DNA of 64,000 nt from Zootoca vivipara (Eukaryota). The stretch lies in the NCBI RefSeq assembly GCF_963506605.1, contig NC_083276.1, positions 50,096,001-50,160,000 on the forward strand, given 5' to 3'. Of the stretch, positions 3,001 through 9,000 are shown piece after piece (the stretch's first letter is position 1; every line of letters begins with the position of its first letter). Made by a program: the position numbers.

Positions 3001-6000
3001 ATATCTAAATGGTTTAGGACACAGACTGTGCTTTATTGATTATTGCTGTGTTTTGATTGTGTGCAGCTTTAGAACTTTGAAAATGCTGTGAAACTGAAAG
3101 GTATGAATAAAAAAAATCCTAAGCTACATTTCCCAGCTCTATCTTGTAAAACAAATATACAGTGGTACCTCAGTTTACAAACAAAATTGGTTCCGGAAGT
3201 CTGTACTTAACCTGAACCGTACTTAACCTGAAGCGAACTTTCCCATTGAAAGTAATGGAAAGTGGATTAATCCGTTCCAGACAGGTCCGCGGAGTACTTA
3301 AACTGAAAATACTCAAACCGAGGCGTACTTAAACCGAGGTATGACTGTAACAGACATAATTTAAACCAACCCTCTACTGTTCTACAGCCCCCTCCAGAAT
3401 TTCCTAAGATTTCATAGGAAAACAGATGCACAGTTTACAGGGCTCATGTGACTTAGCTAAAACTCCATGAGGAATTGAAAGTATCAAGAACAGAAAGTAG
3501 GAGAGAAAGGCTCAAGAAGTGAGTAGGAAGTAGTGGTGGTAAGTGTTGTGACGTGGGGTTTGTGATTTCAGCTCTCTTGACAAAACATGCTGGAGACAGT
3601 TCTCTAGTAACAGCTCTTTATTAAAGTGAACAAGACTGACTGTGAGGGCAGGAAGGCTACATTTATAGGGACAGGGGACTGGCTAGGAAGGGATACATTT
3701 TGGAGGGAACAATATCAGGCAATCACAGTGCTGCCTTTTGGAGGGAACCAATAAGACAGAGGATCCAAATACAGCAGCTTAAATGAACCAATAGTAGCTG
3801 TACCCTCTGGAACCAAAAGGCAGTTACTTTATCCTAATGCAAATACAGACAATAATAATACAGATATAAAATCCTTTGACTCAATACACAACACCCCTCC
3901 CCCCCTAGTGAGCACAGCAGACGTAATCCCTCAGGTACTGTGGGGTCCTACAACTTCTACCTGATCTCCTGACAACAGGTGTTGCAGGTTCTGGATTGGG
4001 TGTTACCTGTGGTGGAGGGGCTGCTATAGGGGTTTCGTCAGGAACAGATGGAGTCCCAGACATCTCAGGGTCCCCTACCTGTACCTCGTCATCCTGAGGA
4101 TTAGCAGACCCTGGTTCATTTGCTGAAGCCCCTGGTGACTGCACCTCTGGGCCATCTTCACTCTGGTCTTGCAGCTGTGCGTCATTAGCCAGGGATGAAT
4201 TATCTGACTCCTCCCTGCTGAGCGCCCGGCGCCTCAGCTGATCTATATGTCTCTTCCAAACTTGCCCATTTTCCAAGGTCACATAATAGGACACAGGTCC
4301 ACTAGCCCGGGTGATCACACCGGCCACCCACCGCGGACCTCGTGAATAGTTCCTCACCCAGACCAGATCTTCAGGGGCGAGATACCTTGTTGTGTCAGTC
4401 TCAGCCTGGGGGGTTGCTCTTGAATTACGGTTTGGCATTTTATCTGGGTGGACATAATCCAGCACCGTTACCAGTCTTCTACCTAAGAGCAGCTCGGCTG
4501 GCGACTTGCCCGTCGCAGTACACGGCGTCGCATGCTGCAAAAATAACATTCGCGCAATGCGAGCCGACCAGTTACCCTCCATTAAGCGCGCAATGGATTC
4601 TTTGGCTGTTCGTACCATGCGCTCAGCCTGCCCATTGGAGGATGGGTGAAAGGGCGCGGATGTGACCCCTCTTATGAAGTTATCAGCCAAGAATGCCCTG
4701 AATTCTTGGGATACAAAAGCTGCCCCATTATCTGATACAATGGTCTCAGGTAACCCGTGGGTTGCAAACAGCTGCCTCAACACCTTGATTACGGCAGCTG
4801 ATGCCATGCTAGGGACCATCGCCACTTCTAACCATTTGGAATATGCATCAACGATAACCAAAAAGACCTTCCCTTGGAATGGCCCAGCAAAATCTATGTG
4901 CAGCCGGCTCCAGGGAGCCCTGGACTGCTCCCACCAGTGGACTGGTGCTCTGGCCACTTCTGGCCGCACCTCTTGGCATGCCTTGCATGTTCGTACCCAT
5001 TGTTCTATGTTCTGGTCCATTCCAGGCCACCACACATAACACCGGGCTAGCGACTTCATCCTGACCATTCCTGGGTGTCCCATGTGAAGCGTCTCAAGAA
5101 CCCTGTTTCTCAGTGGTGCTGGGATGATCACCCTATCTCCCCATAGGAGACAACCCTTATGCATGGACAATTCGTGCTGCCTTGTCGCATAAGGCCTGAA
5201 TTTTTCTTCATGCGGACCACCTGGCCACCCCCTCCCCACCCAAGTGAGCACACGGGAGAGAACAGCATCTTTCCTCGTTTTCTCAGCTATATCAGTAGCT
5301 GTTACAGGAGCCCCCGGAAGTGTTTCTAGCATCATAATGTGCTCCGCCGGAGCAGGATCCTCATTGCTCCCGCCAGGAAGGGGCAATCGACTCAGCGCAT
5401 CAGCGTGGCACAACTGTTTCCCCGGCACATGGGTCAAGGTGTACTGGAACCCATTCAGGAATATTGACCAACGCAACATTCTGGGGGAGAGAATTTGTGG
5501 CGTTTGTTTGTTTGGGTTGAACAACCCTAACAGTGGTTTGTGGTCCGTTTCAATGGAGAAATGGCGACCGTACAAATAATCATAGAACTTTTTGATTCCT
5601 GACACAATTGCTAGTGCCTCTTTATCAATTTGAGCATAGTTGCGCTCCGTGGGTGACAACGTACGGGAATAGAAAGAGATGGGCTTTTCCGACCCATCCG
5701 GTTCCCTATGACTCAGCACAGCCCCCAGGCCGTATTGAGAGGCATCACATGCCAGGACCAGCGGCTTCGACTCATCATAATGAGCAAGGACGCTCCTGCT
5801 ACTCAGCATTTCTCGCAAGGAGTCAAAAGCCTTCTGCTGCTCCCGCCCCCATCGCCACACAGTCTTTTTATGCAAAAGTCTATGTAATGGTTCAGCTACC
5901 GAAGCTTTCTGGGGTAAGAATGAATGATAAAAGTTGATAAGTCCCAGGAATGACTGCAACTCCGTCTTGTTCTGTGGTCGTGGTGCCTCGATGATGGCCT

Positions 6001-9000
6001 TAATCTTAGCATCTGTGGGGTGGATGCCTGATGCATCAATTTTAAACCCCAAGAAATCCACAGTTGGCACCCCAAAACTGCATTTTTCTTTTTTCAGTTG
6101 CAACCCCACCTCCTTGAACTTGAGCAACACTGCACGGACACGCGCAACCAGTTCCTGTGGGTCTTTTCCAGCAATCAAAACGTCATCAAAAAATGGCAAG
6201 ACCCCCGGCAGACCCCTTAACAGGCGTTCCATGAGCCCTTGAAAAATCCCTGGGGCCACACAAACTCCGAACTGTAATCTGTTAACTCTGAACGCCCCTT
6301 TATGTGTGACAATAGTCTGTGCTTCCGCTGATTGTGGGGTTACTGGCAGCTGTTGGTAAGCTTGTGCCAGGTCAATTTTGGCGAACACCTTGCCCCCAGC
6401 CAGTTTAGCCAACAGATGTGATACGACTGGAATGGGGTATGAGTTTCCCCTGAGTGCCTTATTGATAGTACATTTGTAATCTGCACATATCCTGACTTCC
6501 CCATTTGCTTTAAGGGGCGTGACGATTGGAGTCTCCCACTTAGCAGAGTCCACGGGTGAGAGAACTCCCTGCTTGACCAATTTATCCAGCTCTGCCTCGA
6601 TCTTGGGTTGCAGTGCAAATGGCACTCGCCTTGGTTTGAGTCGGATTGGGGCCACCCCGGGGTCCAACTCAAAGTCAACTGGGGGCCCTTTATAACAACC
6701 CAGTTTTCCATTAAAGAGACCAGCAAATTCCTTGCATAATGCCTCGCTCATCTCAGGGCAGGTTTGGATTGAATTAAGCCCTGAGATACTCAGTCCCAGG
6801 GCGGGGAACCAGTCAGTGCCCAGGAGACTGGGGCGACTGCCCTTCGCAATCACCAGTTTGAGTACAGCCTGTTTGTCCCGGAACTGTACTCTCACGGCAC
6901 ACATTCCCATAACATGGATGCGGCCTGCTGAGTACGACTGCAAGGTTGCCGGGAAGGGCTCCAGAGGGGGCAACTTACCCCTGGGGAAGAATGTCTTCGC
7001 AGTCTGGTCCGACACGATGGTGAATGCAGATCCGGAGTCCACCTCCATGTCGCACTGCTGACCCTCAATCTTCACCTTGACGTGTGCCTTGCCTTGCGCT
7101 GGAAACTGCACGGCCCTCCCGTTGATCTCCGTTACGTAGTGGCAGTCCTTTAGAAAACGAGGTGCTGTGGGTGGTCTGCGATGCTCCAGTCTAGGTGCTC
7201 CTGTCGCTCCCGACGCCGCCGATCTACAGACCCTGGCGATGTGACCCGTCTTTCCGCACGTCCGGCACATAGCATCCCTGAAACGACAACTCTTCCGCTC
7301 ATGGTTTCCGCCACAACCTGGGCAACTGCCTCGGCGATCTTTGTGCACTGTGCAGGCCTGACGCACCAACTCAACCCCACGGACTGGGCTCTGGCTCGGA
7401 GTAGCCTCTAGCTCATCCATGGCATGCGCAACTTCTATCTGTGGCTTAGTGGCCTTGCGACTGGCATCAAGCTCCTCTCTTTCATAATTCTCCGTGGCGG
7501 TGGCCTCCTTCAAGGCTGAAGCAAGGGTAACCTCTTCTTTAGCCACGATGCGTCTTCTGGCTTTCTTGCTGCTCAGACCACCAATAAACCGATCCAGGAG
7601 AGTCTCTTCCAGATTTTGGAAGCCGCAGTGCTGAGCGAGCTTCCGGAGTTCAGCCAGAAATGCGGATACAGACTCCCCAGCATGCTGCTGCCTCTTATGG
7701 AACTCCATCCGCCGGGCCATCTTGGTCTCAGTAGGCGCCAAGTGGCTTGTTAGGCAGGCAAGAATATCTTTGAGAGATGTCTCACTCAGCTTCGCTGGAG
7801 CAAGTAATGCCTTGGCCAGCTTGAAGGTCTCGGGCCCACAGTAGCTCAGGAATGTGGCCCTTCTTTTGCTGGCATCGGTGATCCCTTGAGCCACTGCAAA
7901 GAACTCGAAGCGTTCGACGTAGTCTTCCCAGGTGTGGGGCTCTGATGGCTGGAAGGGCTCCAATACCCTTGGACTCTCCATTGTCCTAGCGGGCAGGGTC
8001 GTCTTCTCAGCTGGCCAGTGAGTCTTGTTCTCAGCTGCAATCCGGACTCTGAGGCAGGGTTGTGTTTAACCGCTCCTCAGCATTCCGGATCCCATCCTCG
8101 TCGCCAGTTGTTGTGACGTGGGGTTTGTGATTTCAGCTCTCTTGACAAAACATGCTGGAGACAGTTCTCTAGTAACAGCTCTTTATTAAAGTGAACAAGA
8201 CTGACTGTGAGGGCAGGAAGGCTACATTTATAGGGACAGGGGACTGGCTAGGAAGGGATACATTTTGGAGGGAACAATATCAGGCAATCACAGTGCTGCC
8301 TTTTGGAGGGAACCAATAAGACAGAGGATCCAAATACAGCAGCTTAAATGAACCAATAGTAGCTGTACCCTCTGGAACCAAAAGGCAGTTACTTTATCCT
8401 AATGCAAATACAGACAATAATAATACAGATATAAAATCCTTTGACTCAATACACAACAGTAAGAATGACCCATATTATATCATCTGATGAGTGAGAAACA
8501 GTATGATTCTACCGTCCTGATGGCTTTCCAGCACCAATGGGGAACAGAAAGACCTTTATTTTTACATTCAGACCACAAAACACTGATACACAAAGGACCC
8601 TCCCATTTTAAAACTGCGAACAGAATGCTAATGAATTTTCTTACAAATAATTGTCATCATGACCTTATATATGTTACCATTTTATTTTTTAAAAGTTAAT
8701 TCTTTTTAAGGTATGAAAGGATCAATGACAGAAAAATAATAACCCTTTTCTGGTTTTCCAACCCTACAGGGAACATTGTTAAAGGGAAAGGACGAAATAC
8801 TGTACAGCTTGAGCATGCCTATCTTTATTACAATAATGGTTAATAAACAAAGCTGCATATTACATGCATCCTATTATATGCACTAAGGAATATCACAATA
8901 AGATGTCCACACCTATGTCATTAATGATATCAGCAATTTATTTCATTTATATCTCAGGCCGTAGATTTCAGAGCAACTCAAGCAGCACATTGAAAGACGT

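What the first reader, a model, noticed from the sequence alone, without database searches (positions are those of the whole stretch)
3539..8463. Intact, probably still-mobile Mag-like Gypsy retrotransposon with apparently identical LTRs
Seen: 350-bp LTRs with no visible mismatch, a perfect 5-bp TSD, a perfect 18-nt PBS, a PPT, and a 1358-aa ORF with no stop or frameshift that retains protease, RNase H and integrase catalytic motifs. Established: LTRs are identical at insertion; twin Gag zinc knuckles, a Ser-tRNA PBS and a single ORF fit the Mag lineage; active Gypsy elements are lost in mammals. Inference: a very recent insertion, possibly polymorphic, from an active amniote Gypsy family that may be uncatalogued.
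Basis: partly seen in the sequence, partly recalled or inferred. Interest (0 to 1): 0.75.

Follow-up and report, generated by a model that had tools for sequence, protein, structure and literature searches.

The report
Intact young Gypsy retrotransposon in lizard
This is a complete, unbroken copy of a small Gypsy-type jumping gene that entered a wall-lizard-like genome recently; it is a textbook example of a kind already known to survive in reptiles, not a new kind of element.

Summary
On the minus strand lies a 4,915-bp LTR retrotransposon (3544-8458). Its two 350-bp LTRs are identical at 350 of 350 positions and it is flanked by a GTAAG target-site duplication. It has an 18-nt primer-binding site that equals the start of a published tRNA-Ser(GCT) probe, and a 13-nt polypurine tract. 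One 1,358-codon gag-pol frame has 0 stops and 0 frameshifts. It encodes a capsid-like Gag, two zinc knuckles, protease, RT, RNase H and integrase, with no chromodomain and no env. It agrees with relatives at 162 of 164 near-invariant columns. The best solved-structure match is yeast Ty3 Gag-Pol. The closest named proteins come from Podarcis lizards (92-98% identity), and the protein's own 90% cluster has 67 members. Size, short LTRs, the fused frame and the Ser primer fit the Mag lineage, but I could not run a tree with named Mag references. LTR identity bounds the age only to under about 2 million years. Mobility, polymorphism and catalogue status stay untested. Full-length Mag lineages in reptiles were reported in 2013, so this is a new member of a known kind. 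One side lead: a cattle-tick family nests inside the squamate clade.

The parts
3539..3543 (.). Target-site duplication GTAAG (downstream side of the element as it reads on the minus strand)
3544..3893 (-). 3' LTR, 350 bp, termini TG...CA. Carries the same TATAAA (3662-3667) and AATAAA (3617-3622) as the 5' LTR.
   Evidence: 350 of 350 identical to 8109-8458; motifs read
3894..3906 (-). Polypurine tract of 13 purines; abuts the 3' LTR and overlaps the stop codon
   Evidence: read directly
3905..7981 (-). Single gag-pol reading frame, 1,358 codons plus stop, unbroken (0 stops, 0 frameshifts)
   Evidence: agrees with relatives at 162 of 164 near-invariant columns
7448..7930 (-). Gag capsid-like domain (residues 18-178)
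   Evidence: PDB sequence match to Drosophila Arc1 capsid 6tap, E 4.9e-5; Pfam PNMA E 6e-4, below cut-off
7226..7324 (-). Two Gag zinc knuckles (CX2CX3HX4C and CX2CX4HX4C, residues 220-252)
   Evidence: C220, C223, C239 and C242 are shared by at least 95 of 97 aligned relatives
6806..7081 (-). Aspartic protease (residues 301-392, D315-S-G)
   Evidence: Pfam Asp_protease_2 E 1.2e-3, below cut-off; D315 shared by 112 of 114
5882..6676 (-). Reverse transcriptase (residues 436-700; D501, F-F-D599-D600)
   Evidence: Pfam RVT_1 4e-19; Ty3 RT 4ol8 E 6.5e-66
5387..5851 (-). RNase H (residues 711-865; D746, E788, D813, D861)
   Evidence: Pfam RT_RNaseH_2 2.3e-37; column shares
5227..5252 (-). Second, internal copy of the polypurine tract with its upstream context; a putative central plus-strand primer site (inferred). 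It lies in the RNase H-integrase linker and also encodes the conserved G-W-P.
   Evidence: 21 of 26 identical to 3891-3916; 0 of 300 codon shuffles reach 21, the maximum being 19
4961..5125 (-). Integrase zinc-binding HHCC domain (residues 953-1007)
   Evidence: Pfam Integrase_H2C2 6.3e-17
4571..4912 (-). Integrase catalytic core (residues 1024-1137; D1030, D1084, E1120, i.e. D,D-35-E)
   Evidence: Pfam rve 3.9e-14; Ty3 Gag-Pol 7q5b E 4e-90 over residues 436-1168
3908..4444 (-). Integrase C-terminal region with a GPY/F-type motif (G1228-P-V-S-Y1232), followed by an acidic, proline-rich tail. No chromodomain.
   Evidence: no chromo hit among the Pfam families at E up to 0.01
7982..8088 (-). 5' untranslated leader between the primer-binding site and the ATG
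8089..8106 (-). Primer-binding site, 18 nt, complementary to the 3' end (with CCA) of tRNA-Ser(GCU). Separated from the LTR by 2 nt (8107-8108).
   Evidence: equals the first 18 nt of the tRNA-Ser(GCT) primer printed in PMC9072684; the complement ends two CCA-terminated tick small RNAs
8109..8458 (-). 5' LTR, 350 bp. Carries TATAAA at 8232..8227, AATAAA at 8187..8182, three GAACCAA(T/A)A motifs and a duplicated 22-nt motif upstream of the TATA. The U3/R/U5 bounds are inferred, not mapped.
8459..8463 (.). Target-site duplication GTAAG (upstream side)

Best explanation
An autonomous Ty3/Gypsy (Metaviridae) LTR retrotransposon of Mag-like build, inserted on the minus strand of a lacertid (Podarcis-type) lizard chromosome within roughly the last two million years. 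It still carries every sequence part its replication cycle needs. Inferred cycle, from established knowledge of LTR retrotransposons: transcription starts downstream of the TATA box in the 5' LTR and ends after the AATAAA in the 3' LTR. The single gag-pol frame is translated as one polyprotein and cut by its own protease. tRNA-Ser(GCU) anneals to the 18-nt site and primes minus-strand DNA. The polypurine tract next to the 3' LTR, and possibly the internal copy, primes plus-strand DNA. The two template jumps make the LTRs identical. The DD35E integrase joins the TG...CA ends into the host DNA with a 5-bp staggered cut, which gives the GTAAG duplication. Shown here: the parts, their intactness and their kinship. 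Inferred: that they work, and that the copy or its family still moves.
For: LTRs identical at 350 of 350 positions, with a 5-bp duplication. An unbroken 1,358-codon frame in the domain order Gag-PR-RT-RH-IN. Agreement with 119 relatives at 162 of 164 columns that are at least 95% invariant. Best solved structures are Ty3 Gag-Pol 7q5b (E 4e-90) and Ty3 RT 4ol8 (E 6.5e-66), with the Arc1 capsid for Gag. The primer site equals the tRNA-Ser(GCT) primer start. Family evidence: the protein's own 90%-identity cluster has 67 member sequences. Named relatives are P. muralis at 92% (96.6% over pol columns), P. raffonei at 97% over 39% of the query, and P. lilfordi at 87-98% over 15-17%. The window copy branches with P. 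muralis (bootstrap 100), then Lacerta agilis (95), then Zootoca (100), as vertical descent would give. Internal CpG observed/expected is 0.55 against 0.25 for the rest of the window, so there has been little decay in place. Age: P(0 LTR differences) falls to 0.05 at 2.2 My and 0.5 at 0.5 My; adding the absence of nonsense changes gives 1.7 My (rate from PMC8760935).
Against: There are no expression, methylation, small-RNA or population data, so activity is inferred from intactness alone. 350 bp of LTR has little dating power. LTR identity could also come from gene conversion or assembly polishing, neither of which is testable here. Two of 164 near-invariant columns differ from the family. Protease, zinc-knuckle and PNMA Pfam scores are below their curated cut-offs. 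The 67 cluster members could not be listed, so their species, copy locations and identities are unknown. No DNA of other copies was available, so there is no nucleotide-level family age profile and no dN/dS. Mag placement lacks a tree with named references.
Confidence: 0.88

Rival explanations
1. An older, fixed insertion whose LTRs look identical because of LTR-LTR gene conversion, or because assembly or polishing copied one LTR (or a family average) onto the other. On this reading the copy is not especially young.
For: Zero differences in only 350 bp is weak dating evidence. The family is multi-copy (67 cluster members), which is the condition under which read mis-assignment can homogenise repeats.
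Against: The whole 4,074-nt frame is also unbroken, and 162 of 164 near-invariant columns are kept; conversion between LTRs would not protect these. Internal CpG is not decayed to the host level (0.55 against 0.25). Both junctions and the duplication are exact, and the window has no gaps.
Confidence: 0.07
2. An intact but silent copy. It is structurally complete and young, but transcriptionally silenced (DNA methylation, piRNAs, 3' tRNA fragments against the primer site), or it carries a subtle inactivating change. In that case neither it nor its family moves today.
For: No evidence of expression was available. Two near-invariant columns differ. The LTR is almost free of CpG (observed/expected 0.07), which may reflect past methylation-driven decay in the family. 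3' tRNA fragments are reported to repress LTR elements through the primer site (abstract of PMC12853362 in the listing).
Against: Near-identical open frames in at least three Podarcis species and a 67-member cluster point to continuing or very recent amplification.
Confidence: 0.3
3. It belongs to a vertebrate Gypsy lineage other than Mag (Barthez, CsRN1, Gmr1, a chromovirus) or is an endogenous retrovirus.
For: There is a weak PNMA-type Gag match, and PNMA genes are traced to the Barthez lineage (PMC3670739 Table 1). No tree with named references was made.
Against: There is no chromodomain and no env-sized second frame. The order PR-RT-RH-IN is unlike what I recall for Gmr1 (integrase ahead of RT). 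In pufferfish, most LTR elements including Barthez have separate gag and pol, and some Barthez families have LTRs over 1 kb. Fish Mag1 and Mag2 are 4,696 and 4,813 bp, with 208- and 211-bp LTRs and fused frames of 1,365 and 1,330 aa, close to this element. Ser is the commonest primer among Culex Mag elements.
Confidence: 0.12

Closest known systems
Mag lineage of Ty3/Gypsy elements in vertebrates (fish Mag1/Mag2 of Tetraodontiformes; Jule of Xiphophorus; the 'three Mag lineages' reported in reptiles)
   Same: About 4.7-4.9 kb overall, short LTRs, one fused gag-pol frame of about 1,330-1,365 aa, no env and no chromodomain (PMC11117352 passages and Table 2). A Ser primer and a 4-5 bp duplication are common in insect Mag elements (PMC3286476 Table 1). 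Full-length copies are reported in reptiles (PMC3670739).
   Different: The LTRs are longer here (350 bp against 208-211 bp in the fish elements). No sequence comparison with any named Mag element was possible, and the Jule and mag papers are not held. Kinship is therefore by architecture only.
'Uncharacterized protein K02A2.6-like' gene models of Podarcis muralis, P. raffonei, P. lilfordi, Lacerta agilis and Zootoca vivipara
   Same: The same family or subfamily: 92% (P0002), 97% (P0155) and 87-98% (P0159, P0189, P0198) identity, then 67-71% in Lacerta and Zootoca. They form one clade with bootstrap 100.
   Different: Those are automatic gene models, several of them truncated; P0002, for example, lacks most of the zinc-knuckle stretch and most of the C-terminal region. 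Here the whole element, with LTRs, primer site, polypurine tract and duplication, is seen.
Yeast Ty3 (solved Gag-Pol/intasome 7q5b, RT 4ol8)
   Same: The same superfamily and domain order; E 4e-90 over residues 436-1168.
   Different: From recalled knowledge: Ty3 makes Gag and Gag-Pol from two frames by a frameshift, uses initiator tRNA-Met and targets Pol III start sites. This element has a single frame and a tRNA-Ser primer, and no tRNA gene lies nearby.

Membership tests
Ty3/Gypsy (Metaviridae) LTR retrotransposon | pol domain order protease - RT - RNase H - integrase | tested here: met
   Pfam stretches at residues 301-392, 501-648, 711-845, 953-1007 and 1024-1113; the order is stated as typical in PMC3670739
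Ty3/Gypsy (Metaviridae) LTR retrotransposon | RT/IN sequence closest to Ty3/Gypsy rather than to retroviral or Copia proteins | tested here: met
   Top PDB matches are Ty3 Gag-Pol 7q5b (4e-90) and Ty3 RT 4ol8 (6.5e-66). The best retroviral-type reverse transcriptases score 5e-35 or weaker.
Ty3/Gypsy (Metaviridae) LTR retrotransposon | LTRs with TG...CA ends, a tRNA primer site, a polypurine tract and a short target duplication | tested here: met
Mag lineage | RT-RH-IN phylogeny groups it with named Mag, SURL or Jule references | not testable with these tools
   No tool returns named Mag references. The 120 best hits carry only automatic names, and the Jule and mag papers are not held.
Mag lineage | small element (about 4-5 kb) with short LTRs | tested here: met
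   4,915 bp with 350-bp LTRs, against 4,696-4,813 bp with 208-211-bp LTRs in fish Mag and 119-304-bp LTRs in Culex Mag
Mag lineage | gag and pol fused in one frame (typical in vertebrate Mag; 1 or 2 frames in insects) | tested here: met
   One 1,358-codon frame; fish Mag frames are 1,330-1,365 aa
Mag lineage | primer site for tRNA-Ser (commonest; Leu and Arg also occur, so not strictly defining) | tested here: met
   18 of 18 nt equal the start of the tRNA-Ser(GCT) primer in PMC9072684; Culex table. The lizard's own tRNA-Ser was not available.
Chromovirus | chromodomain at the integrase C-terminus | tested here: not met
   No chromo family among the Pfam hits at E up to 0.01
Errantivirus / endogenous retrovirus | env reading frame downstream of pol | tested here: not met
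   The pol stop overlaps the polypurine tract. The only other sense-strand ORF of at least 80 aa lies inside pol.
Gmr1-like | integrase placed ahead of RT (recalled from memory); about 6.0-6.5 kb with frames of 1,500-1,630 aa in fish | tested here: not met
   Integrase comes last; the element is 4.9 kb
Barthez | PNMA-type Gag; most LTR elements other than Gmr and Mag, Barthez among them, have separate gag and pol in fish; some families have LTRs over 1 kb | tested here: inconclusive
   PNMA Pfam match of 19.7 bits, below the cut-off of 25; the fused frame and short LTRs argue against

The most novel reading that the evidence does not exclude
This copy may be a currently moving, insertionally polymorphic member of a Mag-like family in wall lizards, which would make it a natural case of a live Metaviridae element in an amniote. 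Its wider squamate clade may also have exchanged an element with hard ticks. A multi-copy Rhipicephalus microplus family, located on tick contigs of 301 Mb and 110 Mb, nests inside an otherwise squamate clade of 52 leaves (bootstrap 100) among gecko and lacertid copies (bootstrap 72 and 86). It is closer to these (about 72% identity in pol) than to the Ornithodoros or Ixodes relatives.
Probability: 0.3. Interest if true: 0.5.

Novelty: new member of a known kind. Interest (0 to 1): 0.3.

Why it matters
Mammals and birds have lost live Gypsy elements, while reptiles keep them. A complete copy with identical LTRs, sitting in a genus with many sequenced species and populations, is a convenient marker for dating and tracking recent retrotransposition in an amniote. 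It also helps in studying how Gag-derived host genes (PNMA, Arc-like) relate to living progenitors. In itself it confirms what was already reported for reptiles. The tick link, if it holds, would add an LTR element to the BovB story of tick-squamate transfer.

Tried and rejected
- The listing of cluster members, meant to name the 67 members of the protein's cluster, could not be run. The copy census therefore rests on the cluster size alone.
- A self-BLAST of the element against the window found no further copy or solo LTR.
- The 150 longest of 208 stop-to-stop ORFs of at least 70 aa outside the element were scanned with Pfam to find a host gene. Only 2 of 150 hit anything: an RVT_1 fragment and an ALKBH8_N match. 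Whether the insertion is intronic or intergenic stays open, and short exons would be missed.
- ARAGORN found no tRNA gene in the window, so the primer tRNA could not be checked against a host gene.
- Searching the 18-mer in tRNA sense found only two tick small-RNA tables that give no isotype. Searching the 12-nt start in primer-site sense found the tRNA-Ser(GCT) primer. The other 5 of those 6 papers were seen by title only and look unrelated.
- A search for 'K02A2.6' (24 papers; listing only) gave nothing on lineage.
- The Jule and mag papers are not held.
- A domesticated host gene was rejected: LTRs, primer site, polypurine tract and duplication are all present, and the family is multi-copy.
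- A retrovirus was rejected: there is no env.
- No spliced gene model was involved, so no exon-joining step arose.
- Nothing in the window was taken for human, since the nearest proteins are lacertid.
No DNA of other copies or of the orthologous site was seen.

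
Full report
**Observation.** The described structure is present exactly as stated. The two direct repeats at 3544-3893 and 8109-8458 are identical at 350 of 350 positions, and the identity ends sharply on both sides (one search reports the first 300). They begin TGTTG and end CAACA. GTAAG lies immediately outside each end, at 3539-3543 and 8459-8463. The window has no N and holds no other copy or solo LTR of the element. The element reads on the minus strand and is 4,915 bp long.

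**Anatomy on the minus strand.**
- The 5' LTR (8458..8109) carries TATAAA at 8232..8227 and AATAAA 45 nt further on at 8187..8182. Upstream of the TATA are three GAACCAA(T/A)A motifs and a duplicated 22-nt motif. This layout fits a U3-R-U5 arrangement with a short R, but the bounds are inferred and not mapped.
- After a 2-nt spacer comes an 18-nt site that begins with TGG (8106..8089), then a 107-nt leader, then the ATG at 7981.
- One frame of 1,358 codons runs to the stop at 3907..3905, with 0 internal stops and 0 frameshifts.
- The stop overlaps a 13-purine tract (3906..3894) that abuts the 3' LTR.
- No env-sized second frame exists. The only other sense ORF of at least 80 aa lies inside pol.

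**Protein domains.**
- Pfam finds RVT_1 (4e-19), RT_RNaseH_2 (2.3e-37), Integrase_H2C2 (6.3e-17) and rve (3.9e-14) above their cut-offs.
- Aspartyl protease, zf-CCHC and PNMA score below their cut-offs. No chromodomain is found.
- Against solved structures, the best matches are yeast Ty3 Gag-Pol 7q5b (E 4e-90, residues 436-1168) and Ty3 RT 4ol8 (6.5e-66). Residues 18-178 match the Drosophila Arc1 capsid 6tap (4.9e-5).
- Motif residues present are two Gag zinc knuckles (C220-C232, C239-C252), D315-S-G, D501, F-F-D599-D600, D746/E788/D813/D861, H966/H969/C999/C1002, D1030/D1084/E1120 with the 35-residue spacing, and G1228-P-V-S-Y1232.
- In a MAFFT alignment with the other 119 best database hits, 164 columns are at least 95% invariant. 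The window protein agrees at 162 of them.

**Primer site.**
- The 18-mer in tRNA sense occurs in the text of only 2 papers. Both are tables of tick small RNAs, in which 21-22-nt reads ending in CCA contain it (PMC9611014 and PMC4592253, passages only). That looks like a 3' tRNA fragment, but no isotype is given.
- The 12-nt start in primer-site sense occurs in 6 papers. The only one about tRNA is PMC9072684. In the passage I saw, its Methods print a primer for tRNA-Ser(GCT) whose first 18 nt equal the window's site. The match ends at nucleotide 19.
The lizard's own tRNA-Ser was not available, and the window holds no tRNA gene.

**Relatives and host.**
- The protein search gave 668 hits at E up to 1e-3 among 8,000 scored candidates, with the best 120 listed. 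The window's own 90%-identity cluster has 67 member sequences on a 135.7-Mb contig.
- The next hits are Podarcis muralis (92% over 88% of the query), Zootoca vivipara (71%) and Lacerta agilis (67%).
- A search among shorter proteins gave 287 hits, with 120 listed. It adds P. raffonei (97% over 39% of the query) and P. lilfordi (87%, 90% and 98% over 15-17%).
- The host is thus a lacertid, most likely Podarcis or a close relative, and the family is present in at least three named Podarcis species.

**Tree.**
- I built a neighbour-joining tree on 745 pol columns (Kimura-corrected distances, 100 bootstraps). It used 114 of the 120 hits. Six with under 85% coverage were dropped: P0019, P0070, P0077, P0099, P0102 and P0119.
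- The window copy joins P. muralis (bootstrap 100), then Lacerta (95), then Zootoca (100). This pattern is compatible with vertical descent of a lacertid subfamily.
- That subfamily lies in a 52-leaf clade (bootstrap 100) made of snakes, geckos, lacertids, a few unnamed contigs and one tick protein.

**Lineage.**
- I could not place named Mag, SURL or Jule references in a tree. The hits carry only automatic names, and the two founding papers are not held. The label therefore rests on architecture compared with the literature.
- In pufferfishes, Mag1 and Mag2 are 4,696 and 4,813 bp with 208- and 211-bp LTRs and fused gag-pol frames of 1,365 and 1,330 aa. Gmr is also fused but is 6.0-6.5 kb. Most other LTR elements there, Barthez among them, have separate gag and pol, and some Barthez families have LTRs over 1 kb (PMC11117352, passages and Table 2).
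- In Culex, Mag-lineage elements mostly have 119-304-bp LTRs, one or two frames, 4-5-bp duplications and mostly Ser primers, with Leu and Arg also found (PMC3286476, Table 1 and the 'Mag lineage' section).
- The present element (4,915 bp, 350-bp LTRs, 1,358 aa, Ser, 5 bp) fits Mag best.
- Chromovirus, errantivirus/retrovirus and Gmr1 each fail a defining feature. Barthez is not formally excluded.

**Age.**
- The rate is 1.98e-9 per site per year, used for P. muralis in PMC8760935 (passage).
- The chance of zero differences between two 350-bp LTRs falls to 0.5 at 0.5 My and to 0.05 at 2.2 My.
- In the frame, 512 of 12,222 possible single-base changes would give a stop. Including the absence of any such change lowers the joint 95% bound to 1.7 My. 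Indels were not modelled.
- Internal CpG observed/expected is 0.55 against 0.25 for the rest of the window, which also argues against long residence. The LTR itself is nearly CpG-free at 0.07.
- 'Very recent' is thus reasonable but loosely bounded. Polymorphism is untested.

**How new.**
- Kokosar and Kordis 2013 (PMC3670739, passages) state that numerous Metaviridae lineages with full-length elements persist in reptiles but not in birds or mammals. [quoted passage not shown]
- Their supplementary tables, which I did not open, may already include lacertid or related elements.
- The finding is therefore a clean new member of a known kind, not a surprise.

**Seen in passing.**
1. A 26-nt stretch at 5227-5252 repeats the polypurine tract with its upstream context at 21 of 26 positions. 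None of 300 codon shuffles reached 21; the maximum was 19. It may be a central plus-strand primer site. It also encodes the conserved G-W-P of the RNase H-integrase linker, so coding constraint explains part of the match.
2. The tick lead. The Rhipicephalus microplus protein P0006 (41 cluster members) pairs with an unnamed contig (bootstrap 100) and nests among gecko and lacertid copies (bootstrap 72 and 86).
   - Searching with P0006 gave 641 hits, with 120 listed. Further R. microplus copies lie on contigs of 301 Mb and 110 Mb (91-94% identity).
   - The next named hits are lacertids (51-58% across the listed copies) and geckos (63-66%, partial coverage), followed by Ornithodoros (55%).
   - In pol it is about 72% identical to lacertid and gecko copies, against 67% to Ornithodoros.
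   - Tick-squamate transfer has precedent for BovB (PMC6050309, passages). That paper does not mention Gypsy (0 occurrences).
   - My one literature search on the topic returned 113 papers holding at least 3 of 4 terms, with 12 listed. No listed title concerned LTR elements and ticks.
   - This is a lead only. It rests on a distance tree, on top-120 sampling and on amino-acid identities that imply an old event or an unsampled donor.
3. The surroundings hold an RT fragment (55682-56131, plus strand), an ALKBH8_N-type match (59700-60041, minus strand), a tRNA-like Rfam match without ARAGORN support (12071-12128), and several simple repeats.

**What stayed unchecked.**
- DNA of other copies.
- The orthologous site in other genomes.
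- Expression and silencing.
- The host gene context.
- The identity of the 67 cluster members.
- Catalogue status in repeat databases.

Noticed in passing
proteins P0006, P0099, P0121, P0122 (Rhipicephalus microplus) and P0005 (unnamed contig); no window coordinates: A multi-copy cattle-tick Gypsy family nests inside the otherwise squamate 52-leaf clade (bootstrap 100) that contains the window's element. It is closer to gecko and lacertid copies (about 72% in pol) than to Ornithodoros or Ixodes relatives, which could mean an old tick-squamate horizontal transfer.
   Followed up: partly
window 5227-5252 (minus strand): An internal second copy of the polypurine tract with its 10-nt upstream context: 21 of 26 identical, and 0 of 300 codon shuffles reach that. 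It is a putative central plus-strand primer site, but it also encodes the conserved G-W-P motif.
   Followed up: partly
window 3544-3893 and 8109-8458 against 3894-8108 and the flanks: The LTR is almost CpG-free (observed/expected 0.07), the internal region keeps 0.55, and the rest of the window is at 0.25.
   Followed up: no
window 55682-56131 (+) and 59700-60041 (-): A reverse-transcriptase fragment (Pfam RVT_1, 3.9e-15) and an ALKBH8_N match (4.8e-21). From memory, the latter model also hits LINE ORF2 tails. Both are probably decayed non-LTR elements.
   Followed up: no
window 12071-12128 (-): An Rfam tRNA match (49 bits, model positions 8-63) that ARAGORN does not call as a tRNA gene. It is probably a tRNA-derived SINE.
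   Followed up: no
window 3150-3345: A repeat-like stretch about 200 bp upstream of the insertion site, with a 16-nt unit (GTACTTAACCTGAACC, 2.4 copies at 3203-3240) and related copies at 3287-3337. It may be an older small mobile element.
   Followed up: no
window 9852-9929, 10531-10571, 10193-10233, 12405-12451: Simple and short tandem repeats downstream of the element: (TAGA)n with 20 copies, (CA)n with 21 copies, and two 19-nt units.
   Followed up: no
papers PMC9611014 (m0012) and PMC4592253 (m0020): Two 'novel tick miRNAs' end in CCA, and their last 18 nt are the complement of a tRNA-Ser(GCT) primer start. They look like 3' tRNA fragments rather than miRNAs.
   Followed up: no
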